From: an uncultured virus (IMG/VR IMGVR_UViG_3300035703_000051)
Taxonomy: Duplodnaviria > Heunggongvirae > Uroviricota > Caudoviricetes
DNA: 64,000 nt
Virus record (IMG/VR): IMGVR_UViG_3300035703_000051
Reading direction: 5' to 3' (one strand)
Each line of letters starts with the position of its first letter. Position 1 is the first letter of the stretch. The notes beneath the pieces were generated by a model. That model had not been told where the DNA came from. It searched no databases and worked only from the letters and a program-made list of their open reading frames with translations. The position numbers were made by a program, and so were the translations under genes. Positions 1-17,218 of the stretch are shown here, piece by piece.

Positions 1-130
1 ATAAAGGTCCGCCTGATGGATGGCAACTAGAGGACGGTAGAACCGTTTGCCACGCCTGTTGCGTTGCAGATTTCAGGAAGATCTTGGATAAAACTTTAAG
101 CCAACACCCATCGTAGCCGCTTCCACTTCT

Positions 131-267
131 ATGTCTGAACTTTCGCCCGCCGCCCTAAGCCGCCGAGCTTGAAGGAGCAGGCGCTTGAAGAAGTAGGTGT
201 CTTTGAGGGCATGGGTACATGCAACATTGACATCATCCGCCGCGCTCTTGAATCCCTGCCTGAGTAA
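131..267 (+). pseudogene. Frame-disrupted remnant of a small phage gene
   Basis: ATG131 frame stops after 13 codons (MSELSPAALSRRA). A second frame with no upstream start reads ARRPKPPSLKEQALEE...IIRRALESLPE to TAA267. Confidence 0.4.
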
Positions 268-272
268 TTACC

Positions 273-488
273 ATGACTCATAAGATTGAACCTGTCGAAT
301 TCATCAAACCTGATTTTGCTTACATTTATGCCAAGGTTGCTAGACATGTAGCAGCAGCTTATGCTGTATGCGGTTATGACGAACATGTTCTAGATAAAGA
401 ACTTCGCTTGGCAATGGAAGCCATTGAGTTGTTTGAGAAAACAAGTATGACTATTTACTCTGTTATTCCTAATCCTAAAGAGCACTAG
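273..488 (+). CDS. Hypothetical protein
   Basis: 71-aa ORF in the + strand gene run. Confidence 0.6.
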   Translation: MTHKIEPVEFIKPDFAYIYAKVARHVAAAYAVCGYDEHVLDKELRLAMEAIELFEKTSMTIYSVIPNPKEH

Positions 489-526
489 ATTTACACACCA
501 ATAAATATAAGTTTTACTTATGTATC

Positions 527-554
527 CGTCCTGGGTATGACGTTAAACTGCCTG
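527..554 (+). promoter_or_regulatory. Repeated leader motif copy 1 (predicted H-type pseudoknot)
   Basis: CGTC-CTGGGTAT-GACG-TTAAAC-TGCCTG, about 21 nt before ATG576. Confidence 0.75.
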
Positions 555-575
555 CACTCAACTCAATTCAACACC

Positions 576-1337
576 ATGAAACTCCTCAAGTTTTCCAAAG
601 GCAATGCCAAGCTGCGTGATCGTTTGATCTTCAACATCCCAGCGGGCTACTCATGCCCACACGCTGGTGTCTGCAAGACCATGGCTGATCGTGTCACTGG
701 TGAGATCCGTGACCTACCTCAGCTCACTGGCACACAAGCAGATGAGTATCGCTGCTTTGCTGCCATGGCAGAGACTCGTCCTACCGTACGAGAAGCTCGT
801 TGGCACAACTGGGATTTACTGCGTGAAACCATTCACATGAATGGGAACCAGGCCTTGCTCCTGCGTGATCTAATCGACATGTCACTCCTCATGCACCCCC
901 CAAAGAAACTGGTGCGTGTTCATGAGTCTGGTGACTTTTGGACAGAAAACTACATGAAGGCTTGGATGATGGTGGCCCAAGAGCGGCCCAACCAAAAGTT
1001 TTATGCCTACACCAAGTCTCTTGGCATGTGGCTGAACCTCAAGGACATCATCCCACCAAACTTCTATCTCACCGCATCCTTCGGTGGCACTCTCGACTAT
1101 CTGATCCCTAAGCACACTGACGTATTCAAGCGTATTGCTTATGTGGTCTACACAGAACAAGAAGCTGCAGACCGTGGGCTGGAGATCGATCACGACGACA
1201 GTCACTGCCTTGGTGACAAGTCGTTCGCACTCTTGGTCCATGGGTCCCAGCGTGCTGGGTCAGAAGCCAGTAAAGCCCTAAGCCAACGCAAGAAGGATGG
1301 TGGTTTCACTGGATACAATATCAAGAATAGGAAATGA
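576..1337 (+). CDS. GP88-like phage protein
   Basis: Motifs GNAKL, FNIPAGYSCP..C, CFA, RVHESGDF and YAYTK. Start taken at ATG576 because ATG537 lies inside the repeat motif. Confidence 0.65.
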   Translation: MKLLKFSKGNAKLRDRLIFNIPAGYSCPHAGVCKTMADRVTGEIRDLPQLTGTQADEYRCFAAMAETRPTVREARWHNWDLLRETIHMNGNQALLLRDLIDMSLLMHPPKKLVRVHESGDFWTENYMKAWMMVAQERPNQKFYAYTKSLGMWLNLKDIIPPNFYLTASFGGTLDYLIPKHTDVFKRIAYVVYTEQEAADRGLEIDHDDSHCLGDKSFALLVHGSQRAGSEASKALSQRKKDGGFTGYNIKNRK

Positions 1338-1399
1338 ATCTGTAGAGACTTGCGTTTTAAATGAAATCGGATAGTATGCATCCGTCTTTCATTTGATTC

Positions 1400-1633
1400 A
1401 TGAGTTACGTCATTGCTTGTTGGCGGTGGGGCACACCCCATGCCATCACCGCTAATCAAAAAACCAATAAGTTTGAGTTAATTCCGTTAGATTCAGATGT
1501 AGCTTTAAACAAGATCTTCTCCCACCCATATCGGGCAGGAGCACAGCAGATCTTGACGTGGATTAACAGCAATGACGAAGACCTTGCCTGTAAAGAACTC
1601 TCAATTCAAGATGAGTCCCGCTTCCGCAAATGA
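1400..1633 (+). CDS. Hypothetical protein
   Basis: 77-aa ORF preceded by TTGCGT-N16-TAGTAT and an inverted repeat (1359-1394). Confidence 0.6.
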   Translation: MSYVIACWRWGTPHAITANQKTNKFELIPLDSDVALNKIFSHPYRAGAQQILTWINSNDEDLACKELSIQDESRFRK

Positions 1634-3431
1634 TAAGTATCTAATCTTTGACCTTGAAAGTGATGGCCTGTATGACAAAGTTACAAAAGTTCACTGCATT
1701 GTTATCCATGACATTGCAGCCCAACAAACTTTTGCTTACGGGCCTGATTGCATTGCTGATGCTCTTGCTCATCTGGCAACCGCTGATGTTCTAATCGGCC
1801 ATAACATTTGTTTTTATGACATTCCAGTTCTGCAAAAACTGCATTCATTTGTCTGCAAAACATGCATTATTGACACACTAATTTGCACACGACTCATTTG
1901 GCCCAAGGAAAAACTCTATGACATTGATGTCGAACAATATACGGAGGTTCCACCGAATCTCCGTGGATCCGCATCACTTAAGGCTTGGGGATGGAGATTG
2001 GCCGATCATAAGATCGTCTTTAAAGACTTCTCGGAATACTCTGAGGAGATGCTGGAATACTGCAAGCAAGACGTTGCGGTCACCACAAAACTTTGGAAAC
2101 ACATCAGTGTTCAAAAATATCCTCAACCTGCTCTTAGGTTGGAACATGACTTTGCGTTGGCAATTAACCAACAAATTAGATCAGGTTTTCCTTTCGATAT
2201 GGATGCATGTCTTGATCTCGTGGATGATCTCCGAACAAAGGAAACAGAACTTGAGGCACAGCTAAAAGAAATTTTTCCACCAATCAAACATGAAACAACA
2301 TTTATCCCAAAGGTTAACAACAAGAATCGAGGCTATGTAAAAGGTGAACCGTTTACCAAAGTTCGATATGAAGAATTCAATCCTGGATCTCGTCAGCAGA
2401 TTGCTGATCGACTCCGTGAAAAATACGGATGGACTCCAGAGAAAACAACTGAAAAAGGAAATCCAATCCTTGATGATGAGGTATTAGAAAAGCTTCCATA
2501 TCCAGAAGCTAAACCGTTGGCAGAATATATGTTGCTCAAGAAACGTCTTGGGCAAATTGCAGATGGCAACAATGCATGGCGCAAGCTTTACAACAATGAC
2601 ACTGGTTGTATCCACGGCGACGTTACTACTAACGGTTGCATTACTGGGCGCTGCTCACACCGCTATCCAAATATGGGCCAGGTCCCAGCAGCTTACTCAC
2701 CCTATGGAAAAGAATGTCGAAGTTTGTTCTCTGCTCCTGACGGGTGGAACCTCATTGGTGTTGACGCTAAAGCACTTGAACTACGTTGCCTTGCTGGATA
2801 CCTTGCCCTCTGGGACAATGGAGAATACGCTGCTCTGGTAACAGATGAGAGCGTTGATATTCATGAATACAACCGTCAACAATTTGGTGTAGCAACCAGA
2901 GACATCAGCAAGCGTTTGCTGTATGGAATGTTGTACGGGTGTGGTGCTGTCAAAGCAGGAACCATTATTGATCCGAATGAAAAAGATGAATTTGTTTTGC
3001 GAAAACTAGGAAGAACTGCAATCGATTCATTCATGGATGGTGTACCAGCACTGCGTCAACTCAAAGAAAAACTGGCAAAGAATCTTGTTAAAAACAATTG
3101 TTTGTATGGGTTAGATAAACGTATTCTTTATTGCCGTTCTGACTTCAAAGCATTGAATGTTTTGTTGCAATCAGCTGGTGCCATCATCATGAAACAAGTT
3201 GTTATTAACTTGCACCAGAACACAGAAGAAGCTGGTCTTGTTTATGGGGTTGATTGGATTCAACACGCCATGATTCATGATGAGATTCAGATCAGTTGCA
3301 AGCCACAACATGTGGATTTACTTAAAGAGAATGCACTGAAAGCATTCCCGCAAGCACAGGAGTTCTTTGGGTTCCAGTGCCCCATTGAGGGTGATGCCAA
3401 GGTTGGTAAAACCTGGTACGATACGCACTGA
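1572..3431 (+). CDS. polA: DNA polymerase family A (T7-like) with 3'-5' exonuclease domain
   Basis: ExoI FDLESDG, ExoII GHNICFYD, motif A DAKALELR, motif B KRLLYGMLYG (Tyr at the 762-equivalent position), motif C IHDE. Start may be ATG1611. Confidence 0.95.
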   Translation: MTKTLPVKNSQFKMSPASANDKYLIFDLESDGLYDKVTKVHCIVIHDIAAQQTFAYGPDCIADALAHLATADVLIGHNICFYDIPVLQKLHSFVCKTCIIDTLICTRLIWPKEKLYDIDVEQYTEVPPNLRGSASLKAWGWRLADHKIVFKDFSEYSEEMLEYCKQDVAVTTKLWKHISVQKYPQPALRLEHDFALAINQQIRSGFPFDMDACLDLVDDLRTKETELEAQLKEIFPPIKHETTFIPKVNNKNRGYVKGEPFTKVRYEEFNPGSRQQIADRLREKYGWTPEKTTEKGNPILDDEVLEKLPYPEAKPLAEYMLLKKRLGQIADGNNAWRKLYNNDTGCIHGDVTTNGCITGRCSHRYPNMGQVPAAYSPYGKECRSLFSAPDGWNLIGVDAKALELRCLAGYLALWDNGEYAALVTDESVDIHEYNRQQFGVATRDISKRLLYGMLYGCGAVKAGTIIDPNEKDEFVLRKLGRTAIDSFMDGVPALRQLKEKLAKNLVKNNCLYGLDKRILYCRSDFKALNVLLQSAGAIIMKQVVINLHQNTEEAGLVYGVDWIQHAMIHDEIQISCKPQHVDLLKENALKAFPQAQEFFGFQCPIEGDAKVGKTWYDTH

Positions 3432-3436
3432 TCTCC

Positions 3437-3464
3437 CGTCCTTAGGTATGACGCTAAACTGCCT
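3437..3464 (+). promoter_or_regulatory. Repeated leader motif copy 2
   Basis: CGTC-CTTAGGTAT-GACG-CTAAAC-TGCCT, 21 nt before ATG3486. Confidence 0.75.
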
Positions 3465-3485
3465 TACCACCTTGTTTTACACATC

Positions 3486-4295
3486 ATGAACTTTGTTTGC
3501 GCTTACGCTCAAACCTTGGAGCAGCCAAGGGAAGTATTCGTATCTGAAAACTCAACTGCAATTCGTTGCATCATTGGGTTGCCTGCTGTTGGCAACAAAG
3601 CAGCAACTCATATCGAACTCAACCTGTACGGCAAAAACGCAGAACGTTTTGCTAAAGCACCTAAAGGTGCACACATCTATTTACATGGCGCAACACTGCG
3701 TCATGATCTAGATACCCGTACGCATTCATTGCACGGTGGGAATGTTGCCCCAGCAAGTGATCAATTTCCTCAGTTCAATGATGTGATCTTGACTGGGCGT
3801 TGCGTTAAGGATCTAGATCTCAATGACCCACGGGTGTTCCGTACCACGGAATCTGGTTTGATGATCTGCAATCAAACCATCTCGGTCACAACGGGTAAGA
3901 ACCAGGCTGACCTGTTCAACTTCTTTGCAATGAATAATGCAACAGATCGGTTGAACAACGCTGAGCTGCTTGCCAACATGACACGCAAAGGCGTTGGTAT
4001 TACCATTCGTGGTCGCTTGGTTACCGACACATGGACTGACGCCAATGGTGAACGCAAGTCACAGACAAAGATCCAGCTCAATAAAATGACGTTGGCTCCC
4101 AAGGCAACGGTCAATGAAGCCAAGCCCATCCAACCTCAGACAACACTGAGTGCTGATCGAGACGTTCAACCTTTGTGGAACAGTGCACCATCTCAAGTTT
4201 CTGCTGATCCTTGGAACGTTGCTTCTGGTGGTGGGCTTCCTGATCTTCCTGGTCAGTATGGCCCTGCACCTGACCTAGACGAAGAACCATTCTGA
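3486..4295 (+). CDS. ssb: Single-stranded DNA-binding protein, apparently two OB folds
   Basis: VILTGRCVKD, KGVGITIRGRLVTDTWTDANGERKS and acidic tail DLDEEPF. Confidence 0.8.
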   Translation: MNFVCAYAQTLEQPREVFVSENSTAIRCIIGLPAVGNKAATHIELNLYGKNAERFAKAPKGAHIYLHGATLRHDLDTRTHSLHGGNVAPASDQFPQFNDVILTGRCVKDLDLNDPRVFRTTESGLMICNQTISVTTGKNQADLFNFFAMNNATDRLNNAELLANMTRKGVGITIRGRLVTDTWTDANGERKSQTKIQLNKMTLAPKATVNEAKPIQPQTTLSADRDVQPLWNSAPSQVSADPWNVASGGGLPDLPGQYGPAPDLDEEPF

Positions 4296-4299
4296 TCTA

Positions 4300-4542
4300 A
4301 TGACTCAACCCACACACGATCAATTCACTCTTCTATACGAAGATGAAAACACTAAAGTCCTTCATGAATTCAAAGGATTAGTTGTTGAAGATGTAGTGCA
4401 ACACCTTGTGGATTTTCTCAAGGGCTGCGGCTACATGGAAAGCAGTGTCTTTGAAGCCATGAAGGAAATGTCTGAGATGTATTTCGATGCGTTAAGCACT
4501 GAGAAGTACTTGATGAAATGGGAGAAACCTGATCCAGAATGA
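4300..4542 (+). CDS. Hypothetical protein
   Basis: 80 aa with the VVQHLVDFLKGCGY motif common in small phage proteins. Confidence 0.7.
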   Translation: MTQPTHDQFTLLYEDENTKVLHEFKGLVVEDVVQHLVDFLKGCGYMESSVFEAMKEMSEMYFDALSTEKYLMKWEKPDPE

Positions 4543-4547
4543 AAGCT

Positions 4548-4575
4548 CGTCCTGAGCATGACGTTAAACTGCTTA
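4548..4575 (+). promoter_or_regulatory. Repeated leader motif copy 3
   Basis: CGTC-CTGAGCAT-GACG-TTAAAC-TGCTTA, with compensatory changes relative to the other copies, about 20 nt before ATG4596. Confidence 0.75.
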
Positions 4576-4595
4576 CTCCTGACTACGAACAAACC

Positions 4596-5612
4596 ATGAC
4601 CTCTTCCATGACTACCAAGAAAACTGTTGCGCTTGCTACCAGGGGACTTGACTCCTTCCGGATGTTTCAGTCCAAAGAATTTGTTTCAGGTTATCAAAAC
4701 CTCGTTACCATTCAACCCTTAAATAAATCTAAAGTACGCGGCTGGTTTGTCCGCAAAGCTGATCTTGATACCTGCGGTTGGACTGCAACTGAAGATCAAT
4801 TCACCAAAGGTTCTGTCATCTGGGACTACAAGCAAACTTTTGGTATGGCACCTAATACGTCCATCGAAGAAGGTTTGAACTTTGTTGAACCTCGCTTGCA
4901 AATCTTGCTGCGTTCTCCACTGATGGTTGAAGAAACCACTGGGATGCGCCAGACGATTGGAACCTTTGAGGATCCAGATGTCAAGGTTATGTTTGAGAAC
5001 GACAAGGTTGCATCTGATCTTGCTAACAGCAAAGGTGAGATGTACAAGCGTAAGTACAGTGTGCGCACCAAGTACTTGGTCTACATCCTGACCCAGGACA
5101 ACAAACGTGCTCACAAGATCCCAATGGTGCTGACCCTCAAGGGTCTCAACGGCACCGATGTCTCAGATAAAGTTAAGTTGTACGAAAAAGAAATGTCCAA
5201 GTGCCTGAGCAAAGCACTGGACTCTGAAGTGCCTCTGGCATTTAACGAGAAGTTCTATGCCACCACAGTGTTTGCTCCCGTACTCGCCAATGAGATGCGT
5301 GGTGCCAACAACGTTGAGATCTGCGCCATTGAATCCTTCGAGATTCCTGACTACAGCTCCCAGGAAGACGCAATCGAATCATTGAATCGCCTGTCGATTC
5401 CTGATGAAGATCGTGAATCCACCTGGAAAATGCAGGAGATGTTTGATGACTACATCAACCAGCACTCCCGTCAGGATGCGCAACGTCTTGGTGGTGCCTA
5501 TGGAATCAAAGACGGTGTTGAAATTCTTCCCGTCTCTCGTACCACAGATGCGGTAGAGGTGAAATCCCTGCCCACTCGTGATGAGATCACTGGCGAAGAT
5601 TTATCCTTCTAA
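4596..5612 (+). CDS. Hypothetical protein in replication module
   Basis: Long ORF with an acidic C-terminus ending in Phe. Start taken at ATG4596, downstream of the motif. Confidence 0.75.
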   Translation: MTSSMTTKKTVALATRGLDSFRMFQSKEFVSGYQNLVTIQPLNKSKVRGWFVRKADLDTCGWTATEDQFTKGSVIWDYKQTFGMAPNTSIEEGLNFVEPRLQILLRSPLMVEETTGMRQTIGTFEDPDVKVMFENDKVASDLANSKGEMYKRKYSVRTKYLVYILTQDNKRAHKIPMVLTLKGLNGTDVSDKVKLYEKEMSKCLSKALDSEVPLAFNEKFYATTVFAPVLANEMRGANNVEICAIESFEIPDYSSQEDAIESLNRLSIPDEDRESTWKMQEMFDDYINQHSRQDAQRLGGAYGIKDGVEILPVSRTTDAVEVKSLPTRDEITGEDLSF

Positions 5613-5867
5613 GCCAGGAACTGAGGGATTGGCTACGGCATCTGGTTCAACTGCAACATTGTTGAAGATGAACATGTCTTGAATCAATCCTCTGATCACG
5701 CCTTGTCTGTTAGTGGCGATCTGCGCAAGCAAGGTCGCCATTTCTTTCAAGGTGCTAACTGAGTTACATTCTTCTATTGATCGTTTGATTTTTTCTAACC
5801 AAAACTTATCATCGAGCGTTGGTTCAATTTGGAATTGAGTCAATGGAACGTACTTAATTTCTTCCAT
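5601..5867 (-). CDS. NblA-like protein (divergent)
   Basis: IEPTLDDKFWLEKIKRSIEECNSVSTLKEMATLL...RQGVIRGLI matches the NblA helix-loop-helix pattern L(S/T)LEQxF. Confidence 0.5.
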   Translation of the reverse strand: MEEIKYVPLTQFQIEPTLDDKFWLEKIKRSIEECNSVSTLKEMATLLAQIATNRQGVIRGLIQDMFIFNNVAVEPDAVANPSVPGLEG

Positions 5868-5949
5868 AAGGTATTAAGTTGTTACAAATTATTCTACTTA
5901 ACGTTTTAAACTTGATTCAAACCTTCCATTTTTGTTAAGGATTCAGCAC

Positions 5950-6141
5950 ATGCAACCAGAAGAAAAGGCTGCTATCAAAGCTGCAGGTACCACAGCCTTG
6001 ATTGCTGGTGCCTTTGCTGCTACCATTGCAACGCCTGTGGCCTGGGCTGCAGTCATGCTTGGTGCTTACCGCATGGGCAAATCAGCCTATGAAAAAACCA
6101 AACAGGAGAGAATCCAACAGGATTACTTCAAGAACAACTAA
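5950..6141 (+). CDS. Small Ala-rich hydrophobic protein
   Basis: Hydrophobic stretch TALIAGAFAATIATPVAWAAVMLGAY. Confidence 0.6.
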   Translation: MQPEEKAAIKAAGTTALIAGAFAATIATPVAWAAVMLGAYRMGKSAYEKTKQERIQQDYFKNN

Positions 6142-6153
6142 CTCAACTCAATC

Positions 6154-7098
6154 ATGACTATTCAAACTCAACTCGAACTTAATGCGGCTCAGTCTTGCAT
6201 TTACACCCGTACTAACATACGCCGTGCTTACCAGGATTTTGATGACTCCGAAATTACTGGGATTTATGTGCGAGCTGATGATTGCATCGTGGTGCGTCGC
6301 GATGGTACTGAGCAGACTTATTCACGGCAACTAATTAAAGCTGCCTACAGCACCTACACTCACCGTCTCAAAGATTTCTTTTCCTATCTTGGTCCCAATT
6401 ATCGTGGCCCTAGTGTATGGCATCACAATGCTTACGTTCTTTTTAAGGGCTGGTATTACTCGCACGCACTCGGACATCTGACCTCCAATGCCAAACTCCA
6501 ATCTCACTGGGCAGATAAGTTTATACACGTATCCGACCCAGCAAAAATCACAGCTCTCTTGCAGTCTGACCAAACGGACTTGGGCCATTTGGTTGCACCG
6601 GACGGGCTGCGGCTTCCAAATCGGACGGTTAATCTGGACGGCGAATTGGATGACAATGAAGAACAAAAGCCGGTGTTTGGCGAACCTACATGCTCGTGTG
6701 GGTCGTTTCAACGTCAGTTCAACAACCTATCTTCTTTCCAAGAAGAGATCCAGGGATTTCAACCGTGGTGTATACACCTGACTTGGTTTAACAAGTACAG
6801 GGAATTACTGTGCAAACGCACTGAAGTCCGCAACACTAGTGCCAGTGGTACGCCTGATAAGTGCGTGGCTTGGTGGTATGCACCTCCCTCTGATGCAAAC
6901 AAAGATGGGCGTTTCATGTTGCTTCATACCAAATCAGGTGCTCAAGCTCCGATGACCCATTGGCGTCATTACAAACCAAACGAAGTCTTTACACAAAAAG
7001 ATGCATGGGATCTTTTCTTCAATATGATGGAAGCTGGTTATGTACCGTTTCCGGGTACTGCACTACCACAACTTAAAGCTGTAACCAAGAACCAATGA
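6154..7098 (+). CDS. SWIM zinc-finger protein
   Basis: CSCGSF...WCIHL fits the CxC...CxH pattern. Confidence 0.65.
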   Translation: MTIQTQLELNAAQSCIYTRTNIRRAYQDFDDSEITGIYVRADDCIVVRRDGTEQTYSRQLIKAAYSTYTHRLKDFFSYLGPNYRGPSVWHHNAYVLFKGWYYSHALGHLTSNAKLQSHWADKFIHVSDPAKITALLQSDQTDLGHLVAPDGLRLPNRTVNLDGELDDNEEQKPVFGEPTCSCGSFQRQFNNLSSFQEEIQGFQPWCIHLTWFNKYRELLCKRTEVRNTSASGTPDKCVAWWYAPPSDANKDGRFMLLHTKSGAQAPMTHWRHYKPNEVFTQKDAWDLFFNMMEAGYVPFPGTALPQLKAVTKNQ

Positions 7099-7286
7099 CC
7101 TTTTTAAGTTCAGTCCAAAAATTAAACATTAATTTTATGGAAGAGAAAGATGGTAGCGGCACCATCCACATTAACTGGGATGAAACTGATCCTGATCTCC
7201 AATGGTGGAATGACCTTGGTGAAAACGGTCAAAAATCGTTTATTCTAGATTCACTCCATCGTGTTTTATGTACTGATGTCAATTGA
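7095..7286 (+). CDS. Hypothetical protein
   Basis: ATGA overlap with the upstream stop codon. Confidence 0.6.
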   Translation: MTFLSSVQKLNINFMEEKDGSGTIHINWDETDPDLQWWNDLGENGQKSFILDSLHRVLCTDVN

Positions 7287-7635
7287 CAACTACGGTCTTA
7301 CCAACGAACAGTACAAAGAGTTCTTTAAAGAGAATCTCCGTTTCTCTGCTGAACTTTACCTAGAGACCTGCAATATCCTTAACACCGCTGGTGCTGGGGC
7401 ATTGGACTTCAAAACAATCCTTGATCTGTACCAGGAGGCAGTGTACGTAACCAATGATGATTGCCGTCGTTACCAAAAAGCAAACAACCCTGATGCTTTA
7501 AAAGACAATGATCCTTATGCAATCCTTACTCCCAGTCGGGAAGAACTGATGGAAGAAATCCAATCTGTCAACGCCAAAGTTGAATCACTCACCGACTATG
7601 TCTTGGAGCTAACAAGGGCACTACTAAAGGATTGA
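7276..7635 (+). CDS. Hypothetical protein
   Basis: ORF in the operon with a coiled-coil-like C-terminus. Confidence 0.65.
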   Translation: MSIDNYGLTNEQYKEFFKENLRFSAELYLETCNILNTAGAGALDFKTILDLYQEAVYVTNDDCRRYQKANNPDALKDNDPYAILTPSREELMEEIQSVNAKVESLTDYVLELTRALLKD

Positions 7636-7672
7636 CAAAACTGGTAGACTAGATCTGCTTGCAGGTAAAAGC

Positions 7673-7700
7673 CGTCCTGGGTACGACGCAAAACTGCCTA
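7673..7700 (+). promoter_or_regulatory. Repeated leader motif copy 4
   Basis: CGTC-CTGGGTAC-GACG-CAAAAC-TGCCTA, 18 nt before ATG7719. Confidence 0.75.
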
Positions 7701-7718
7701 CCTACCTCACCTCAACTC

Positions 7719-7832
7719 ATGTTCGAATCTCTTCTGTCCGCCGTGCTTCCGGTGATGAAAGATCTTCTTTGGGCAGCGGCAGGCATGCTGCTGTCCTATG
7801 TTCTCAACAAAGTCCAATCTCAATTCAATTGA
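7719..7832 (+). CDS. 37-aa hydrophobic peptide (not in ORF track)
   Basis: MFESLLSAVLPVMKDLLWAAAGMLLSYVLNKVQSQFN. Fills the gap between the motif and ATG7836. Confidence 0.6.
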   Translation: MFESLLSAVLPVMKDLLWAAAGMLLSYVLNKVQSQFN

Positions 7833-7835
7833 ACA

Positions 7836-8549
7836 ATGACTCAAATTACTCAAACTAAACTGAATAAACTCAACGTCTTTGAGTTGTATAAACACTATGC
7901 TGCTCTCGAACAGTCTCTGCCTCTTCTCACTCCTGAGTCCCAGGACCTGGCCAAGTCCGAATTGGAAACTTGTGCCAACTTACGGTCAGAAAAAATTGAT
8001 CGCATCTATTACGCCATGGCGGCGCATGAAGATGCCTTGGAACGCATCAAAAAAGAAGGAGATCTCATCACGCAAGCCAAGCGTCATCACGAATCCCAAC
8101 TGCGGTCGCTCAAGAATTTGTTAGGCTGGCTTCGGCGTTCTTTGCCATTTGATACCAACAAGATCACTGGCAAGAACTACCAGTTCACACTCATCAAGAA
8201 AAAGGAACTGACGGTTGAAGTCTCAACGGATCCGGAGTTTTGGCACTCTGAAGAAAGAGAACTTTATTGCATTGAAGAAGAAGTCTGCACAACAAAAAGA
8301 GTTGTGCTACGTTCAATGTCAGGAGAAGTTCTATCCGATAGAACAGAACCTTCCATCAAAACCAAAGTCCTCCCGAACCTTGATGCCATACGCAGCGCCT
8401 ATCAAAACGGTCAACAATTACCGAGTGGAGTCAAAGTCACTCAAGAATATGGTGTCCGATCCAAACGAATCTATCTTGAACCCAGAGTGGAACTGGAAGC
8501 ATCCGAGTATCCAGGAGAGCTTCTACCAGAAGATCGATGCACCGAATGA
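7836..8549 (+). CDS. Siphovirus Gp157-like protein
   Basis: Coiled-coil N-terminus EKIDRIYY and C-terminal PNLDAIRSAYQNGQQLPSGVKV. Confidence 0.65.
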   Translation: MTQITQTKLNKLNVFELYKHYAALEQSLPLLTPESQDLAKSELETCANLRSEKIDRIYYAMAAHEDALERIKKEGDLITQAKRHHESQLRSLKNLLGWLRRSLPFDTNKITGKNYQFTLIKKKELTVEVSTDPEFWHSEERELYCIEEEVCTTKRVVLRSMSGEVLSDRTEPSIKTKVLPNLDAIRSAYQNGQQLPSGVKVTQEYGVRSKRIYLEPRVELEASEYPGELLPEDRCTE

Positions 8550-8790
8550 TGCGGAAGATGCACGTATCAAAATGAACTGTCATCAACATGCAGTCAAAGA
8601 CTTTGATCTGCAGATTGAGATGAATGATCTTGAGATGACAATGCTCAAAGATCATGGTGAAATCCTTCCCTATAACGAGGGGCGTGTGGATGAGCTAGAG
8701 CAAAAGAAACTCAAGCTTCTGCTTGGTAAACGGTTTCACCAGAATGCAACTAATGCTTACTGGTATTACCTGGCTAAAGCTGGTAAATAA
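8449..8790 (+). CDS. Hypothetical protein overlapping the upstream gene
   Basis: Frame open from 8215. Start is uncertain; ATG8449 used. Confidence 0.6.
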   Translation: MVSDPNESILNPEWNWKHPSIQESFYQKIDAPNDAEDARIKMNCHQHAVKDFDLQIEMNDLEMTMLKDHGEILPYNEGRVDELEQKKLKLLLGKRFHQNATNAYWYYLAKAGK

Positions 8791-8826
8791 ACTGCAATAC
8801 AATAAATAGATATTGCAGGGAGTTCC

Positions 8827-9090
8827 ATGGGCAATGATCCAGTCTTAAATAAATTAATTGCTGGATTTACTAATGATGGAACTCCTTTATCAGCAACCAT
8901 TGGTTCAAAGATGGAGCATGGTGTTGTCATCTTGACAGCAGCCATGCTTGCTAATGAACATTTGGCATCCTCCATGGATGCAGAAGAAATGGTCGATGCT
9001 GCCATTAACTATTACAATGTCATTCAGCAACGTCTTGGTTACTACCAACAACATCAAACACATTCGTTAGAGCGTTTACTGGAAAGTTGA
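8827..9090 (+). CDS. Hypothetical protein
   Basis: 87 aa with a GGGAG Shine-Dalgarno sequence. Confidence 0.7.
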   Translation: MGNDPVLNKLIAGFTNDGTPLSATIGSKMEHGVVILTAAMLANEHLASSMDAEEMVDAAINYYNVIQQRLGYYQQHQTHSLERLLES

Positions 9091-9126
9091 ATTACTGCTA
9101 AGGTAATTGAGTCTTTATATCCAGAG

Positions 9127-9324
9127 ATGCAAACTGTTCCTGTACCAAAGCTCACGCTTTCTTTTGCTGTTGACATTGAAGTAGAGTACAACTCCTTTGG
9201 TGGCAAAACGCAAGATGAAATTGCTGAGGCGCTCCAAGACGATCTAGATGATTTGCTCTATGAGCTGTCACCTCACGTCAAAGGCGTTTACACTAGCTGC
9301 ACCTCCATTGCATTTAACGACTGA
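9127..9324 (+). CDS. Hypothetical protein
   Basis: 65-aa ORF in the operon. Confidence 0.6.
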   Translation: MQTVPVPKLTLSFAVDIEVEYNSFGGKTQDEIAEALQDDLDDLLYELSPHVKGVYTSCTSIAFND

Positions 9325-9578
9325 TGATGAACTCTGATTACCTTGCCGGCTGGGATGTTAAAGCCGAACAACGCAAGACTGATTTCATGGAGCACATGTA
9401 TCAATGCTCTGGTCGTGCCAACGCAGGTCCTGGTGTTGTAGGTCTGTATACAGGTCTCTGGCAAAAGTTTTGTATGGAAGAAGCGGGACCTTTTGCTCGC
9501 AACAAATACTTTGAAATGCTTGAAGCCGCCAGGCGATTTGAGGAACAACAAGCAAAAGAAGCATCTATTGTTTCTTAA
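9324..9578 (+). CDS. Hypothetical protein
   Basis: Stop/start overlap; DFMEHMYQCSGR...LYTGLWQ motif. Confidence 0.65.
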   Translation: MMNSDYLAGWDVKAEQRKTDFMEHMYQCSGRANAGPGVVGLYTGLWQKFCMEEAGPFARNKYFEMLEAARRFEEQQAKEASIVS

Positions 9579-9625
9579 GCTTTACAATAAATAGACAACC
9601 AATCCCAGGCGCATCACACTGTGGT

Positions 9626-9952
9626 GTGCCTGATTTCATTATGGACTTTACTGACAAACCAATGGAAGCCATTAAAGAATGGCAAGACTGGTATCGCAAA
9701 CACCCCATTGTCTCTGAATCAAACTTCATGACAAGTGTTCCTGAAAACGTTAAAAACATGTGGATACAAAAAGCACAAGAAGGTTTTGCAGACACACTTT
9801 CGGAATATCAATACGAATTATCTGGCAAAGAACTATATAAAGCTTTTTATGCAGCAGCATATGAACACATGGAAAATGCACACAAAGAATACAACAGAAC
9901 AAAAGATCTAGTTGATATGCTGCGCTTTGGCAACTCCACTCAAGAAAAATGA
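9626..9952 (+). CDS. Hypothetical protein
   Basis: 108-aa ORF in the operon; start uncertain. Confidence 0.6.
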   Translation: MPDFIMDFTDKPMEAIKEWQDWYRKHPIVSESNFMTSVPENVKNMWIQKAQEGFADTLSEYQYELSGKELYKAFYAAAYEHMENAHKEYNRTKDLVDMLRFGNSTQEK

Positions 9953-10188
9953 ATCGCAAACGAGAGCCTGATTACCCCAACTACATCTGCCACGTATGTG
10001 GGGAAGCCTATGGTGGATGGTACAAACGTGGTACATACATTGGCCCACCGCATCATTGCGCTACATATCACAACGGAACTTGTGATCTTTGTGGTGATAC
10101 TGATGTCCCTGTCACTGAACCACGAGACTATGGACATCTGCGTGCAAAATGGAAAGGTGAGATAATGAGAAGTAGAGAAAGCAATTAA
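9949..10188 (+). CDS. Small zinc-finger protein
   Basis: CHVCG and CDLCG pairs plus VTEPRDYG. Confidence 0.65.
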   Translation: MNRKREPDYPNYICHVCGEAYGGWYKRGTYIGPPHHCATYHNGTCDLCGDTDVPVTEPRDYGHLRAKWKGEIMRSRESN

Positions 10189-10193
10189 AACTA

Positions 10194-11507
10194 ATGCCTA
10201 CTTATAGAGATCCACTTAAACCAAGTAATAGCTACCCAGTTATTAAAGTCCAAACTTGTAGTGGTCAACCATTAGAAGTAACAACTGCATCTGGTCAATC
10301 TACTTATATTCAACCGGGTGGTGTAGCAGGTGATGCATTTGGTCGCCTGCGTACATCAAACCCATATACCTTATTTGATTCCAGTCATCGTTATTCTGTT
10401 AACGGTCACTGGTCTACATCAACAGGTGTCAGCGGTACTGTTGTCTTCAATGCGGACCAGGGATTGGTTGACCTAAAGATTGGTACTAACTCTGGATCCA
10501 AGGTTTACCGGGAAACTAATCGAGTCTTCTCTTATCAGCCCGGTAAATCCCTGCTGACCATGAGCACCTTTGTGATGGGCTCTGGTCAAACCAACCTACG
10601 TCAGCGGGTTGGATACTTTGGTAGTGGTAACGGTATTTATTTTATGCAGTCGGGTTCAACTTATTCCATTGTTGAACGTTCTTCTGTTAGTGGATCCGTT
10701 ACAGAAAGCATCATTCCTCAGGCAAGTTGGAATGGTGACAAGCTAAATGGTAGTGGTGAATCAGGTTTTAATCTGGACCCCACCAAGTCTCAAATCTTTT
10801 GGTCTGATGTTGAGTGGCTTGGTGTTGGCACCGTTCGTGCAGGTTTTGTCATCAACGGTCAATTCATCGTTGCTCACTCGTTCCATCACGCAAACCTGGT
10901 TCCTGGTACCTACATCACAACGGCATCTCTTCCGTTGCGGTATGAGATTGAAGCCCTTGGCACTCTTTCGTCCAGCGGCAACTTAAAACAAATTTGTTCT
11001 ACTGTTATTTCAGAAGGTGGCTACGAAACCAGGGGTGATTCCAACTCTATTAACTTACCTATTGCAAGTGGACGTGTTTGCACCAACAGTGGTGTGTTCT
11101 ATCCAGTTATTGGTATTCGTTTAAAGTCCACACGTTTAGATGCAATTGCTGTACCTAATGCCATTTCTTTAGTAGGTAACGGTACTAACGCAATCTTTAC
11201 TTGGCGTATCGTTAAAAACGCCACAATCTCTGGTGGCACTTGGACCAGTGCTGGCATTGACTCTCCTGTTGAATACAACCTCAGTGGTGTATCGGTTTCT
11301 GGTGGTCAAGTTATGACTGCTGGCTACTTCACTGCTGATGCACAAAGTCGTCCTGTTGTTGAACTTACAACAGCAGACTTCTTTAAGTTTCAACTGGAAC
11401 GTGATTCATTTACTAATACACCCGCTGAATTAGTACTGCAAGTGGCCGCCAAATCAGACAATGATGTTGTATGGGGTGCACTTGATTGGGAAGAAATCAG
11501 CAAATAA
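10194..11507 (+). CDS. Ser/Gly/Thr-rich beta-structured protein, probably virion-associated
   Basis: DAFGRLRTSNPYTLFDS motif; 437 aa. Confidence 0.6.
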   Translation: MPTYRDPLKPSNSYPVIKVQTCSGQPLEVTTASGQSTYIQPGGVAGDAFGRLRTSNPYTLFDSSHRYSVNGHWSTSTGVSGTVVFNADQGLVDLKIGTNSGSKVYRETNRVFSYQPGKSLLTMSTFVMGSGQTNLRQRVGYFGSGNGIYFMQSGSTYSIVERSSVSGSVTESIIPQASWNGDKLNGSGESGFNLDPTKSQIFWSDVEWLGVGTVRAGFVINGQFIVAHSFHHANLVPGTYITTASLPLRYEIEALGTLSSSGNLKQICSTVISEGGYETRGDSNSINLPIASGRVCTNSGVFYPVIGIRLKSTRLDAIAVPNAISLVGNGTNAIFTWRIVKNATISGGTWTSAGIDSPVEYNLSGVSVSGGQVMTAGYFTADAQSRPVVELTTADFFKFQLERDSFTNTPAELVLQVAAKSDNDVVWGALDWEEISK

Positions 11508-11541
11508 AACACTGATAAACTAAAACTATCGGCTAAACGTC

Positions 11542-12105
11542 ATGTATACTCCCGGTCCTCAGACGCAACAACCACCCCAGATGGGGGTGGAACCACTCAA
11601 TTCTGGGGTGGCTCCAGAGCAGCAAGCCAAACCCAAGGCTCCTGGTAAATCAAAGAATGGTGATGTCGGGGCCTTTATCCAGCAGTGCATCTCTCTCTGT
11701 TCCTACCTCAAGGAACTTCAAACACAATCCCATCTCATTCACCTGAACATTGAAGGTGCAAACTTTCTCGGTCTCCACGGGTTCCTTAAAGGTCAGTACG
11801 AAGCTCATTTGGAACAGTTTGATACGTTGGCCGAATTTATTCGGTCGATGGATTACCTGATGCCCATGTGTGCCAGGGGACTGGCGGATGCTGGCCCTGG
11901 TATCCAGCATGTTACCAGCTACAAGGGCACCGATCAGCTCGCCACGTACTACAAAAATCTGGAAGAGCTGGGCATGAAAAGTAAAAAGCTGGAACCCATT
12001 GCTGCCAAAGTGGGTGCTATTGACATTCAAAACTATATGGCAGAACTATGCGGCCAAGCCTTCAAGGCGGCATGGTTCGTGAAGGCCACGCTAAGAACAA
12101 GCTGA
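11542..12105 (+). CDS. dps: Dps/ferritin-like protein
   Basis: HLIHLNIEGANFLGLHGFLKGQYEAHLEQFDTLAE matches the Dps ferroxidase signature; C-terminal KAAWF. Confidence 0.8.
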   Translation: MYTPGPQTQQPPQMGVEPLNSGVAPEQQAKPKAPGKSKNGDVGAFIQQCISLCSYLKELQTQSHLIHLNIEGANFLGLHGFLKGQYEAHLEQFDTLAEFIRSMDYLMPMCARGLADAGPGIQHVTSYKGTDQLATYYKNLEELGMKSKKLEPIAAKVGAIDIQNYMAELCGQAFKAAWFVKATLRTS

Positions 12106-16314: not shown

Positions 16315-16323
16315 CTATACATA

Positions 16324-16869: not shown

Positions 16870-16945
16870 GCGAGGTGCGTAAGGATTAGGAATTTCAGGC
16901 CAAACAGAATACAACTGGTTGATGTACTTGTTCAACCGTGCTTTT

Positions 16946-17152: not shown

Positions 17153-17218
17153 TTCAGATACTTTGGGTGTTCTAACTATAGGACCAATTAGTAACATGTG
17201 TTTTATTGACGCATGTTA

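What the first reader, a model, noticed from the sequence alone, without database searches (positions are those of the whole stretch)
527..7700. Four-copy covarying H-type pseudoknot about 20 nt upstream of early/replication genes
Seen: CGTC-[loop]-GACG-YWAAAC-[tail] at 527, 3437, 4548 and 7673. CGTC pairs with GACG in every copy. The loop pairs with the tail in every copy: TGGGTA/TGCCTG, AGGTA/TGCCT, TGAGCA/TGCTTA, TGGGTA/TGCCTA. Copy 3 has compensatory changes and several pairs are G-U, which points to RNA rather than a DNA operator. Each copy is followed by 18-21 mostly C/A/T nucleotides with no Shine-Dalgarno, then an ATG (576, 3486 SSB, 4596, 7719). Inference: a phage regulon element such as a translation enhancer, an exonuclease-blocking cap, a ligand sensor or a protein-loading site. 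The T4 gene 32 autoregulatory pseudoknot is a known analogy. I do not recognise the family.
Basis: partly seen in the sequence, partly recalled or inferred. Interest (0 to 1): 0.8.

Follow-up and report, generated by a model that had tools for sequence, protein, structure and literature searches.

The report
Widespread 28-base RNA knot between genes
The four repeats are real copies of a tiny, strongly conserved RNA pseudoknot that sits between genes in many phages and bacteria, is not catalogued in Rfam, and probably acts as a fixed structural boundary in multi-gene messenger RNAs.

Summary
The window holds exactly four copies (527, 3437, 4548, 7673, + strand) of a 28-nt element: NGUC-C-UGRGYA-W-GACN-NNAAAC-UGCYYA. 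Both helices of the proposed H-type pseudoknot covary. This holds in the relative S-EIVl, in over 200 IMG/VR contigs, in named phages of Staphylococcus, Lactobacillus, Geobacillus, Nostoc and Synechococcus, in roseophages and crAss-like phages, and in chromosomes of many bacterial phyla. Stem 1 occurs as GUC/GAC or GAC/GUC; non-complementary combinations gave 1/116 and 1/120 family-like hits, against 109/128 and 92/123. No Rfam 15 family matches.

Upstream ORFs stop no closer than about 5 nt before the knot and pile up at exactly 5 nt. That is the reach of a terminating ribosome, so the element works as RNA inside polycistronic transcripts. tRNA genes, the DUF2800 RNA and hammerhead-like cores follow it within 0-37 nt.

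Function is inferred, not shown. My best reading is a self-contained boundary element that shields the neighbouring RNA segment from decay. This resembles the 28-nt T4 gene 32 leader knot, which has the same architecture but a different sequence. Rivals are a promoter, a protein or ribosome site, a processing signal or ribozyme, and a sensor. It is not a phage-specific regulon element.

The parts
527..554 (+). Pseudoknot copy 1: S1 527-530/539-542, L1 C531, S2 532-537/549-554, L3 543-548. It is the first element of the + strand gene block.
   Evidence: 39.9 bits, E 4e-8
555..578 (+). G-free 21-nt spacer and the ATG (576) of the GP88-family gene (PF17338)
3429..3431 (+). TGA stop of the family A DNA polymerase gene, 5 nt before knot copy 2
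3437..3465 (+). Pseudoknot copy 2 (loop one base longer)
   Evidence: 24.7 bits, E 3e-4
3466..3488 (+). 20-nt spacer and the ATG (3486) of the SSB gene (PF00436)
4540..4542 (+). TGA stop of the 80-aa ORF, 5 nt before knot copy 3
4548..4575 (+). Pseudoknot copy 3 (S2 UGAGCA/UGCUUA, compensatory relative to copies 1 and 4)
   Evidence: 42.8 bits, E 7e-9
4576..4598 (+). 20-nt spacer and the ATG (4596) of the DUF5895 gene
7673..7700 (+). Pseudoknot copy 4
   Evidence: 34.7 bits, E 9e-7
7701..7721 (+). G-free 18-nt spacer and the ATG (7719) of a 37-aa ORF that precedes the Gp157-like gene

Best explanation
Each copy is transcribed as part of the polycistronic + strand mRNA and folds on its own into a 28-nt H-type pseudoknot. 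The knot has stem 1 of 4 bp and a 1-nt loop (invariant C) that crosses the deep groove of a 6-bp stem 2. One junction base is bulged, and a 6-nt loop ends in an invariant AAAC that lies along stem 1. The element belongs to a very large RNA family, not catalogued in Rfam, that phages and bacteria place between cistrons. It sits as close to the preceding stop codon as a terminating ribosome allows, and just ahead of the next ribosome-binding region, tRNA or structured RNA. I propose that it is a protein-independent boundary element. On this view it is a compact block that stops exonucleases, or 5'-end-dependent endonuclease entry, arriving from the neighbouring segment. The flanking RNA would then get its own defined end and lifetime: here the mRNAs for GP88, SSB, DUF5895 and the next block, and in other phages the scaffold/capsid mRNAs. 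Shown: the element exists, both helices covary, it acts on the sense strand, it is intergenic, the 5-nt stop-codon limit holds, and it is widely distributed. Inferred: the tertiary contacts, any nuclease resistance, and which side is protected. My odds are about 0.9 that it is a functional sense-strand RNA pseudoknot and about 0.4 that the boundary/stabiliser mechanism is the main function.
For: Structure. On 96 distinct instances 92.9% of cells pair, against 85.4% in shuffles (0/500 reach it). Pair 11-29 is AU 63, GC 29, GU 2, other 2; pair 10-30 is GC 41, AU 18, GU 15. On 145 instances 92.2% pair against 80.2%, with covariation 0.383 against 0.183.
Stem 1 middle pair. In IMG/VR, GUCC..GAC gave 109/128 family-like hits and GACC..GUC 92/123. 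The non-complementary controls gave 1/116 and 1/120. A pattern that left both positions free found 119 complementary and 4 non-complementary cases in bacterial genomes.
Sense-strand RNA. G.U-type cells number 109 and A.C-type cells 21.
Ribosome-scale spacing. A stop triplet lies exactly 5 nt upstream in 64/223 instances, against about 14 at other offsets. Among 53 real upstream ORFs of at least 60 codons, none ends 0-3 nt away, 1 ends at 4 nt, 13 at 5 nt, and 3, 3, 4 and 6 at 6-9 nt. The same peak (26/113) appears in the independent genome set. Window copies 2 and 3 and two S-EIVl copies have the 5-nt spacer.
Transcribed context. In five bacterial genomes a sigma70-type promoter, a Shine-Dalgarno sequence and a conserved short ORF lie upstream and read into the knot.
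Autonomy. The flanks are G-poor, 13% against 23%. Tandem knots occur in 4 loci. The knot abuts tRNAs, DUF2800 RNA and hammerhead cores.
Precedent. The T4 gene 32 leader knot has the same 28-nt architecture. According to passages of PMC3014915, it begins 4 nt downstream of the RNase E cut that creates the most stable T4 mRNA.
Against: I found no RNA data of any kind for this phage; no RNA holder was listed.
Nested folding of the four copies gives only -2.8 to -3.4 kcal/mol, no better than shuffles. Any unusual stability therefore rests on untested tertiary contacts.
The outer pairs are often unpaired: 4-19 in 38/145 and 9-31 in 53/145.
In 21/123 bacterial genome hits a conserved upstream ORF ends inside the knot, so ribosomes must melt it there. 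That fits a regulatory device better than a passive block.
tRNA and DUF2800 RNA starts lie 0-11 nt after the tail. This is where a transcript would start if NAAACU were a -10 box.
The direction of protection (5' or 3') cannot be told. When a tRNA or a hammerhead follows, the knot ends up on the 3' end of the upstream fragment.
Confidence: 0.4

Rival explanations
1. DNA promoter. NAAACT (columns 21-26) would be a -10 box for the host RNA polymerase, and GTCC...GAC would be a site for an activator. Transcripts would start about 7 nt after T26, so the knot would not be in the RNA it controls.
For: A22 and T26 (the -11 and -7 positions of such a box) are invariant. tRNA genes start 1-11 nt after the tail in 12 of the 14 downstream rows (two further loci at 32 nt), which puts them 7-17 nt after T26. 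The Rfam DUF2800 RNA starts 6 nt after T26 in 2 loci. A terminator-like hairpin lies just upstream in 14/334 instances, against 5/334 in the control. S. aureus phage records annotate a BPROM 'promoter' over the element. The downstream genes in the window lack a Shine-Dalgarno sequence, as short-leader mRNAs might.
Against: A double-stranded promoter does not explain two interleaved covarying helices or the excess of G.U over A.C. No -35 element or TG extension is conserved, and the upstream profile is at most 0.2 bit. C at -8 is invariant, which is unusual for a -10 box. The consensus scan finds no promoter at any window copy. The sharp 5-nt limit for upstream stop codons is a ribosome-scale feature. 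In bacteria a canonical promoter plus a translated short ORF lie upstream of the knot. The BPROM annotation is a software prediction.
Confidence: 0.12
2. Binding site for a protein or for the ribosome. It would be a translational operator or enhancer like the T4 gene 32 leader. SSB, another phage or host protein, or the 30S subunit would dock on the knot and then spread over or load onto the adjoining unstructured G-poor spacer, setting translation of the downstream gene.
For: The architecture matches the gene 32 knot, and a single-stranded stretch reaches the start codon. In the window and in S-EIVl the knot-to-AUG distance is constant at 18-23 nt in 8 of 8 copies. One copy precedes the SSB gene. 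In the broader set many start codons lie 14-35 nt after the tail. Invariant single-stranded bases (C8, AAAC) could be contacts.
Against: The element also precedes tRNA genes, the DUF2800 RNA and hammerhead cores, which are not translated. Spacing to the start codon is broad outside this lineage, from 5 to 170 nt. Hosts span many phyla and no shared phage protein is evident. Single chromosomal copies in bacteria argue against a phage-encoded partner.
Confidence: 0.15
3. RNA processing signal. The knot would be either a tRNA-acceptor-like mimic cut by RNase P or RNase Z ('punctuation'), or a very small self-cleaving or otherwise catalytic RNA. Either way it would separate polycistronic transcripts into units.
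For: The knot stands beside tRNA genes on either side. Hammerhead cores lie 24-37 nt downstream in 4 loci, with a weak HH9 hit. A GIR1-like match starts inside one copy. Phages are known to use minimal ribozymes next to tRNAs (passages of PMC10879173). Pistol ribozymes also have a short hairpin whose loop forms a 6-bp pseudoknot, and they occur near phage genes in Firmicutes (passages of PMC4604425). Invariant C8 and C25 could be catalytic.
Against: No Rfam ribozyme model matches the element. It lacks pistol P2/P3 and the HDV-like P3/L3/P1.1. No CCA-like tail is conserved after stem 2. Distances to tRNAs vary from 1 to 11 nt, so no fixed cleavage junction is visible. At 28 nt it is smaller than any known natural self-cleaver (recalled).
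Confidence: 0.15
4. Ligand-sensing riboswitch aptamer of the preQ1-I size class, whose folding would respond to a small molecule or ion.
For: Size and topology resemble the smallest riboswitch aptamers (recalled). Thirteen invariant bases include unpaired C8, AAAC and C25. Tandem copies exist. In some bacteria the element lies in the leader of an Rrf2 regulator / hybrid-cluster-protein operon.
Against: No Rfam riboswitch matches. Downstream genes are unrelated to each other: scaffold, SSB, primase, nuclease, endolysin, PstS-like and tRNAs. No expression platform is conserved: a T-run follows the tail in only 28/334 instances, and the tail does not cover the Shine-Dalgarno sequence or the start codon. 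L2 is a single variable base, which leaves no obvious pocket.
Confidence: 0.05

Closest known systems
Autoregulatory leader pseudoknot of T4/T2 gene 32 mRNA
   Same: It is an H-type knot of 28 nt with a 4-bp stem 1, a single-nucleotide loop 1 spanning a 6-7-bp stem 2, 0-1 junction base and a 5-6-nt loop 3. This is read from the T4 sequence; the coaxial two-helix NMR model is cited in PMC3014915. It lies in the 5' leader of a phage gene inside polycistronic transcripts and is followed by an unstructured stretch up to the start codon. The stable mRNA begins 4 nt before the knot after RNase E cleavage.
   Different: There is no sequence similarity; the covariance model does not score the T4 leader. 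The gene 32 knot is tied to one gene and one protein (gp32). This family precedes many unrelated genes, tRNAs and ncRNAs in many phyla. The spacer here is 18-21 nt and C/A-rich, not about 40 nt and A/U-rich.
Compact triple-helical frameshifter pseudoknots of luteovirids (BWYV type; recalled, not tested)
   Same: The size is about 28 nt. A cytosine in loop 1 faces a G-C pair of stem 2. An A-rich loop ending in AAAC lies along the minor groove of stem 1. The knot is placed 5-8 nt downstream of the codon in the ribosomal A site.
   Different: Here the upstream codon is a stop codon, not a slippery heptamer, and the element is intergenic. No extended frame follows consistently.
Exoribonuclease-resistant RNAs (xrRNAs) of flaviviruses and plant viruses (recalled)
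   Same: They are small pseudoknotted folds with conserved tertiary-contact bases. They are often in tandem, lie in intergenic or untranslated regions, and define the 5' end of a stable downstream RNA.
   Different: No Rfam xrRNA family matches. No ring topology is demonstrated. Bacterial 5'-3' exonuclease resistance has not been tested.
preQ1-I riboswitch aptamer (RF00522)
   Same: It is an H-type knot of about 30 nt with an A-rich 3' loop (recalled).
   Different: There is no Rfam hit. It has a longer stem 2 and a one-base L2, it is not associated with queuosine genes, and it has no expression platform.
Pistol self-cleaving ribozyme (RF02679)
   Same: It has a short P1 hairpin whose loop forms a 6-bp pseudoknot. 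It is common near phage genes in Firmicutes and in metagenomes (PMC4604425).
   Different: P2, P3 and the GU cleavage junction are absent here, and the Rfam model does not match.
DUF2800 RNA motif (RF02960)
   Same: It is a phage-associated structured RNA. In 4 loci it starts right after the tail of the knot: directly in L017 and L053, and within a few nt in L525 and L526.
   Different: It is a separate RNA of about 158 nt whose Rfam model does not include the knot. Most knots have no DUF2800 RNA behind them.

Membership tests
T4-type gene 32 autoregulatory pseudoknot | H-type fold with 1-nt loop 1 over a 6-7-bp stem 2, a short stem 1 and a 5-7-nt loop 3 | tested here: met
   Alignment A3 with its pair counts, compared with the T4 leader read
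T4-type gene 32 autoregulatory pseudoknot | Sequence homology to the T-even leader | tested here: not met
   Model R1 gives no hit on the T4 gene 32 leader; the best hit elsewhere scores 6 bits at E 1.1
T4-type gene 32 autoregulatory pseudoknot | Specific to the SSB gene leader, followed by an A/U-rich (UUAAA-repeat) operator | tested here: not met
   Only 1 of 4 window copies precedes the SSB gene. The spacers are C/A-rich. Elsewhere the element precedes scaffold genes, tRNAs and others.
T4-type gene 32 autoregulatory pseudoknot | Bound by the phage SSB, which represses translation | not testable with these tools
   Needs binding and translation assays
Any Rfam 15 family (riboswitches, ribozymes, xrRNAs, leaders) | Covariance-model match | tested here: not met
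   No match overlaps the knot in window 1-12000 (E up to 1), in 20 + 20 short loci (E up to 10 and 1), in 20 long loci or in 5 bacterial loci. The one overlap is a sub-threshold GIR1 alignment in L173.
Pistol ribozyme | P1 loop pseudoknot plus P2, P3 and a fixed GU junction | tested here: not met
   Only the P1-pseudoknot part has a counterpart. The downstream sequence is not conserved and RF02679 gives no hit.
HDV-like / theta ribozymes | Nested double pseudoknot with P3/L3, P1.1 and a catalytic C in J4/2 | tested here: not met
   A single base stands where P3 would be (alignment A3), and there is no Rfam hit
Sigma-70-type promoter | -35 and -10 hexamers 16-18 bp apart (or a TG-extended -10) | tested here: not met
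   No site at any copy. No conserved -35 or TG. Only NAAACT resembles a -10 box.
-1 frameshift / readthrough stimulator pseudoknot | Slippery heptamer or leaky stop 5-8 nt upstream, and an extended frame downstream | tested here: not met
   No slippery site upstream of copies 2 and 3. Of 75 long-flank instances only 9 ORFs read into or through the knot, several of them in tRNA regions.
Exoribonuclease-resistant RNA | Halts a processive exonuclease and leaves a defined end | not testable with these tools
   No RNA runs were listed. Needs enzyme assays or end mapping.

The most novel reading that the evidence does not exclude
This 28-nt knot would be a universal, protein-independent punctuation mark of bacterial and phage polycistronic RNA. 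In effect it would be a bacterial counterpart of viral xrRNAs, or a new minimal processing RNA. Its invariant C8/AAAC/C25 triplex core would stall exonucleases or ribosome-coupled decay, or direct cleavage, and so set the ends and lifetimes of the neighbouring mRNAs and tRNAs across most bacterial phyla.
Probability: 0.25. Interest if true: 0.9.

Novelty: new variant of a known kind. Interest (0 to 1): 0.78.

Why it matters
If the reading holds, one of the smallest and most widespread structured RNA elements of phages and bacteria has so far escaped cataloguing. It has 13 invariant bases in 28 nt. It occurs in phages of Firmicutes, Cyanobacteria, Bacteroidota and Alphaproteobacteria, and as single chromosomal copies in Omnitrophota, Desulfobacterota, Planctomycetota, Patescibacteria and others.

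It would give a concrete, testable handle on an old question: how expression levels are set for individual genes within long phage operons, for example scaffold and capsid against portal, or SSB against polymerase.

It would also provide a compact, portable part for synthetic operons, as an insulator or stabiliser.

The sharp 5-nt stop-codon limit is a natural in vivo read-out of the ribosome's footprint at termination.

Tried and rejected
- Rfam: six searches, at gathering-free E-value thresholds, gave no family for the element.
- Literature: string searches for six motif words returned only unrelated primers. Keyword searches found no description of the element. The 10,006 candidate viral RNAs of PMC10690425 could include part of it. 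I read only passages of that paper and not its supplementary tables.
- Earlier findings of this scan: no look-alike by sequence.
- RNA evidence: no RNA holder was listed for window 300-8000.
- Whole genome: none is held for the window.
- Promoter scan of window 1-9000: nothing at the copies.
- Coding explanation: rejected. The reading frames differ between copies, and tRNAs and ncRNAs follow some copies. Only one bacterial subfamily has an ORF running into the knot.
- Mini-ORF starting at the AUG formed by A14-U15-G16: it ends overlapping the main start codon at window copies 2 and 3 and at S-EIVl copy 2, and is in frame at copy 1 of both phages. The relation is not general: 61/139 with the AUG against 56/171 without it.
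- Sigma-54, ECF and an alternative -35/-10 reading (loop as -35): considered by eye against the profiles and rejected for wrong spacing or lack of conservation.
- Thermodynamics: nested folding cannot evaluate the knot and gives z-scores near 0.
- Rows dropped: A2 and A3 use only instances without loop insertions (16 of 112 were dropped between A1 and A2). A3 is a sample of 145 out of 172 distinct 28-nt cores. 'Family-like' means a loop matching Y-N(1-2)-R-G-Y-A-N(1-2).
Full report
**1. The observation**

Reading the four sites shows the same element each time. It runs N-GUC-C-[UGRGYA]-W-GAC-N-NNAAAC-[UGCYYN] and begins at 527, 3437, 4548 and 7673 on the + strand. Copy 2 has one extra loop base.
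- The 27-nt consensus finds three copies at up to 3 mismatches, with none expected in 100 shuffles. The core GACGNWAAACTGC is exact in all four.
- The ATGs at 576, 3486, 4596 and 7719 open genes for a GP88-family protein, an SSB, a DUF5895 protein and a 37-aa ORF.
- The spacers are 21, 20, 20 and 18 nt, nearly free of G, and lack a Shine-Dalgarno sequence.
- The window is a cyanophage related to Synechococcus phage S-EIVl: 71% identity over 60% of bases 1-8000.
- A covariance model, R1, was built from 145 instances with stem 2 as pairs. With filters off it finds only these four copies in the 64 kb, at E 7e-9 to 3e-4; the next hit has E 1.4.

**2. The structure is real**

S-EIVl carries orthologous copies before the same genes. 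Its whole genome holds six strong copies and one weak one, all on the gene strand. Its copies already change the outer stem 1 pair (C-G, U-A, A-U) and stem 2.

Of these, 109 have the family's loop. Stem 2 is fully complementary in 66 and 5/6 complementary in 34. When tails are shuffled, the expected numbers are 30 and 46.

Pair counts:

| Measure | 96 instances | 145 instances |
|---|---|---|
| Cells paired, observed / shuffled | 92.9% / 85.4% (0 of 500 shuffles reach it) | 92.2% / 80.2% |
| Covariation score, observed / shuffled | 0.306 / 0.171 | 0.383 / 0.183 |
| Pair 11-29 | AU 63, GC 29, GU 2, other 2 | AU 107, GC 35, GU 2, other 1 |
| Pair 10-30 | GC 41, AU 18, GU 15, CG 3, UA 2, other 17 | GC 71, AU 32, GU 17, CG 4, UA 1, other 20 |
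| Pair 13-27 | CG 60, UG 35, other 1 | CG 92, UG 52, other 1 |

Sliding the partners by 1-3 columns drops pairing to 23-48%.

Named Firmicutes phages showed stem 1 flipped to GAC/GUC. I therefore scanned all four combinations of the middle pair:

| Stem 1 pattern | Complementary? | Family-like hits |
|---|---|---|
| GTCC..GAC | yes | 109/128 |
| GACC..GTC | yes | 92/123 |
| GTCC..GTC | no | 1/116 |
| GACC..GAC | no | 1/120 |

 A pattern that leaves both middle positions free found 76 + 43 complementary and 2 + 2 non-complementary cases in bacterial genomes.

G.U-type cells outnumber A.C-type cells by 109 to 21. The folding strand is therefore the sense strand, and RNA is the natural carrier.

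Two interleaved helices with different centres cannot be a protein palindrome.

Caveats:
- The scans fix GTCC/GAC/AAACTGC, so the invariance of those bases is partly imposed.
- A2 and A3 exclude instances with loop insertions.
- Nested-only folding energies are unremarkable, -2.8 to -3.4 kcal/mol with z near 0. The evidence is comparative, not thermodynamic.

**3. Where the element occurs**

blastn with two instances finds it in intergenic DNA of many named phages:
- 88 Staphylococcus phage records, including phages 80, 52A, 88, 92, X2, phiETA, phiMR11, phiNM4 and B166;
- Lactobacillus phages KC5a, phig1e, Lj771 and phi jlb1;
- Geobacillus phage D6E, Anoxybacillus A403 and Bacillus megaterium phages;
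- Nostoc NMeng1 and Acaryochloris A-HIS1;
- T4-like cyanophages S-SM2, S-H35 and S-RIM4;
- roseophages (SIO1 group, Lentibacter, Celeribacter) and crAss-like cr7_1 and cr124_1.

Hits in enterobacterial phages are short matches inside genes.

In KC5a, SAP3, D6E and B166 the single copy lies between the portal, protease or minor head gene and the scaffold plus major capsid genes. Of 40 downstream ORFs sampled from IMG/VR, 6 are scaffold proteins. The rest are varied: nuclease, Toprim primase, Mom, DUF932, DUF5131, CHAP endolysin, a PstS-like protein and a tombusvirus-like coat protein.

The hits lie in Firmicutes, Cyanobacteria, Omnitrophota, Patescibacteria, Planctomycetota, Desulfobacterota, Chloroflexota, Bacteroidota, Actinomycetota, a Phytoplasma, a few Proteobacteria and two archaeal MAGs. 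Five such genomes hold exactly one copy each.

**4. Positional rules**

(a) Upstream stop codons.
- A stop triplet lies exactly 5 nt before the first paired base in 64 of 223 distinct instances. Other offsets have about 14.
- Taking only real upstream ORFs of at least 60 codons (53 of 75 long-flank instances): none ends 0-3 nt before the knot, one ends at 4 nt, thirteen at 5 nt, and 3, 3, 4 and 6 at 6-9 nt.
- The genome set repeats the peak, 26 of 113.
- Window copies 2 and 3 and S-EIVl copies 1 and 4 have the 5-nt spacer.
- Five nucleotides is the stretch of mRNA between the A-site codon and the entrance of the ribosomal mRNA channel. This is established knowledge of ribosome footprints and frameshift-site spacing, recalled here. 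The knot therefore sits as close as it can without being unwound by the terminating ribosome.
- This places the element in RNA that is co-transcribed with the upstream gene.

(b) Location. Of 75 long-flank instances, 52 have the ORF stop upstream, 14 have no nearby ORF, and 9 have an ORF running into the knot. Several of those 9 are spurious ORFs in tRNA regions.

(c) Flanks. G makes up 13% of the 5 nt before and the 12 nt after the knot, against 23% farther away.

(d) Downstream.
- Start codons often lie 14-35 nt after the tail, but the range is wide.
- In this phage lineage the distance is constant at 18-23 nt in 8 of 8 copies.
- tRNA genes begin 1-11 nt after the tail in 12 of the 14 loci with a tRNA gene just downstream (four of these share one sequence; two further loci have one at 32 nt). 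Two loci have a tRNA 12 nt upstream.
- The Rfam DUF2800 RNA begins right after the tail in four loci: directly in L017 and L053, and within a few nt in L525 and L526.
- Hammerhead cores (CUGAUGAG...CGAAA) lie 24-37 nt downstream in four loci, one with a weak HH9 hit.
- In one 2.4-kb contig a sub-threshold GIR1 match (28.8 bits, E 4e-4) starts inside the knot.
- Four loci have tandem knots 5-47 nt apart.
- A terminator-like hairpin ends just upstream in 14 of 334 instances, against 5 of 334 in the control. A T-run follows the tail in 28 of 334.

**5. Bacterial chromosomal context**

In Omnitrophota, Desulfobacterota and Planctomycetota genomes the single copy lies in the leader of an Rrf2-family regulator gene, which in the annotated locus L614 is followed by hydroxylamine reductase (hybrid cluster protein). 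Upstream lie, in three of the five loci, a TTGACA-17-TATCAT promoter with a palindrome, and in all five a Shine-Dalgarno sequence and a conserved ORF of 22-27 codons (...RPVAHCKEGCS...). That ORF ends inside the knot, at UGA or UAA codons formed by the knot's own sequence. Where one was identified (three of the five loci), the regulator's start codon follows 7-33 nt after the tail.

21 of 123 genome hits have this short ORF. Here the knot is certainly transcribed, and it is melted by ribosomes. This argues against a promoter and shows that the module can also be used in a regulatory way.

**6. How it most likely works**

The geometry is that of classical compact H-type knots:
- a 4-bp stem 1;
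- one-nucleotide loop 1, an invariant C;
- a 6-bp stem 2 with purines always on the 5' strand and an invariant G12-C28 pair;
- one bulged junction base;
- a 6-nt loop 3 ending in invariant AAAC.

By analogy (recalled, untested), C8 lies in the deep groove of stem 2 and the adenines lie in the minor groove of stem 1.

The closest documented case is the T4 gene 32 leader. Read from the T4 sequence, it is also 28 nt, with S1 of 4 bp, L1 of 1 nt, S2 of 7 bp, L2 of 0 nt and L3 of 5 nt. According to passages of PMC3014915:
- the knot lies 67 nt before the start codon;
- RNase E cuts all gene 32 transcripts at -71;
- the upstream part is degraded;
- the remaining mRNA is the most stable of T4;
- gp32 uses the knot to nucleate repression.

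R1 does not match the T4 leader. The two are twins in architecture, not in sequence.

I therefore commit to a boundary or stabiliser function: a self-contained block between cistrons that defines and protects the end of the adjoining RNA. I give this about 0.4. The positional rules, the G-poor flanks, the tandem copies and the placement before highly expressed genes all fit it.

Its weak points are:
- there are no RNA data;
- the predicted stability is modest;
- the protected side is unclear;
- the bacterial short-ORF arrangement is better explained by regulation.

**7. Rivals**

- Promoter (0.12). NAAACT resembles a -10 box. tRNA and DUF2800 RNA starts fall where such a promoter would initiate. 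The reading cannot explain the covariation, the G.U excess, the missing -35, the 5-nt rule, or the promoter plus translated ORF upstream in bacteria.
- Protein or ribosome site (0.15). It fits the constant spacing in this lineage and the gene 32 precedent. It does not fit the tRNA and ncRNA contexts or the phylum-wide spread.
- Processing signal or minimal ribozyme (0.15). The company of tRNAs, hammerheads and a GIR1-like element suggests it, as does the precedent of theta ribozymes (PMC10879173, passages) and the pistol-like P1/pseudoknot (PMC4604425, passages). No ribozyme model matches and no fixed junction is seen.
- Riboswitch (0.05). The downstream genes share no pathway and there is no expression platform.

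**8. Novelty**

No Rfam 15 family covers the element. Searches of the held literature by motif string and by keywords found no description. The large candidate list of PMC10690425 could contain part of it, but its supplements were not examined.

Earlier notes of this scan describe other, unrelated pseudoknotted leaders in phages. They agree in spirit but are not evidence.

I class the element as a new variant of a known kind, namely leader or intercistronic pseudoknots. Its breadth and extreme compactness are unusual.

Noticed in passing
L173:969-1219 (- strand), IMG/VR contig of 2371 nt: The knot is followed directly by a sub-threshold match to the GIR1 lariat-capping ribozyme (28.8 bits, E 3.7e-4, five conserved blocks including AUCCCAUACA). 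It lies upstream of an ORF with a tombusvirus-like coat S domain (PF00729, E 7e-24). The upstream 287-aa ORF has no Pfam match.
   Followed up: partly
L614-L618 (G001-G005) and 21 of 123 genome-contig hits: A conserved ORF of 22-27 codons (...M(L/I)(R/P)(P/R)xAHCxxGC...) with its own Shine-Dalgarno sequence ends inside the knot. In three of the five loci a sigma70-type promoter plus palindrome lies upstream. It sits upstream of an Rrf2-family regulator, followed in L614 by the hybrid-cluster-protein gene, in Omnitrophota, Desulfobacterota, Planctomycetota and Chloroflexota. The peptide matches no NCBIfam model.
   Followed up: partly
L017:178-324, L053:178-324, L525:1-101, L526:1-117: The Rfam DUF2800 RNA (RF02960) begins right after the knot's tail (directly in L017 and L053). 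The Rfam model may therefore lack a 5' pseudoknot domain that some members carry.
   Followed up: no
L509, L565, L143, L164 (24-37 nt after the knot): Hammerhead ribozyme cores (CUGAUGAG-stem-CGAAA) follow the knot. In L565 the predicted cleavage site would lie about 7 nt after the tail. Only L565 gives a weak Rfam HH9 hit (E 0.17).
   Followed up: partly
window 537-578, 3448-3489, 4558-4599; L001 copies 1 and 2: A14-U15-G16 at the helix junction forms an AUG. The mini-ORF it opens (MTLNC...) ends in a TGA or TAA that overlaps the main start codon (ATGA / TAATG) at window copies 2 and 3 and at S-EIVl copy 2. It is in frame with the gene at copy 1 of both phages. The relation is not significant across the whole family (61/139 against 56/171).
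   Followed up: yes
L537, L550, L605 (gaps of 5-10 nt), L088 (gap of 47 nt), L159 (three copies before three small ORFs): Tandem or serial knots. In L088 the two neighbouring copies carry the two opposite stem 1 versions.
   Followed up: no
L493:1506-1542 (Staphylococcus phage B166; also B236, phiJB, B122): Deposited annotation calls the element a 'promoter' on the basis of a BPROM prediction. The loop would be the -35 and a TATTAT after the tail the -10.
   Followed up: partly
window 11542-12105, 15343-18478, 25414-26676: The phage encodes a ferritin-like protein, a GDP-mannose 4,6-dehydratase-like enzyme, a DegT-type aminotransferase and a group 1 glycosyltransferase. These may serve sugar modification of the host surface or of phage components.
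   Followed up: no
L175 (IMG/VR contig, tRNA array): A knot sits in a cyanophage-like tRNA cluster that also holds a near-threshold manA RNA match (51.5 bits against a gathering score of 55.2).
   Followed up: no
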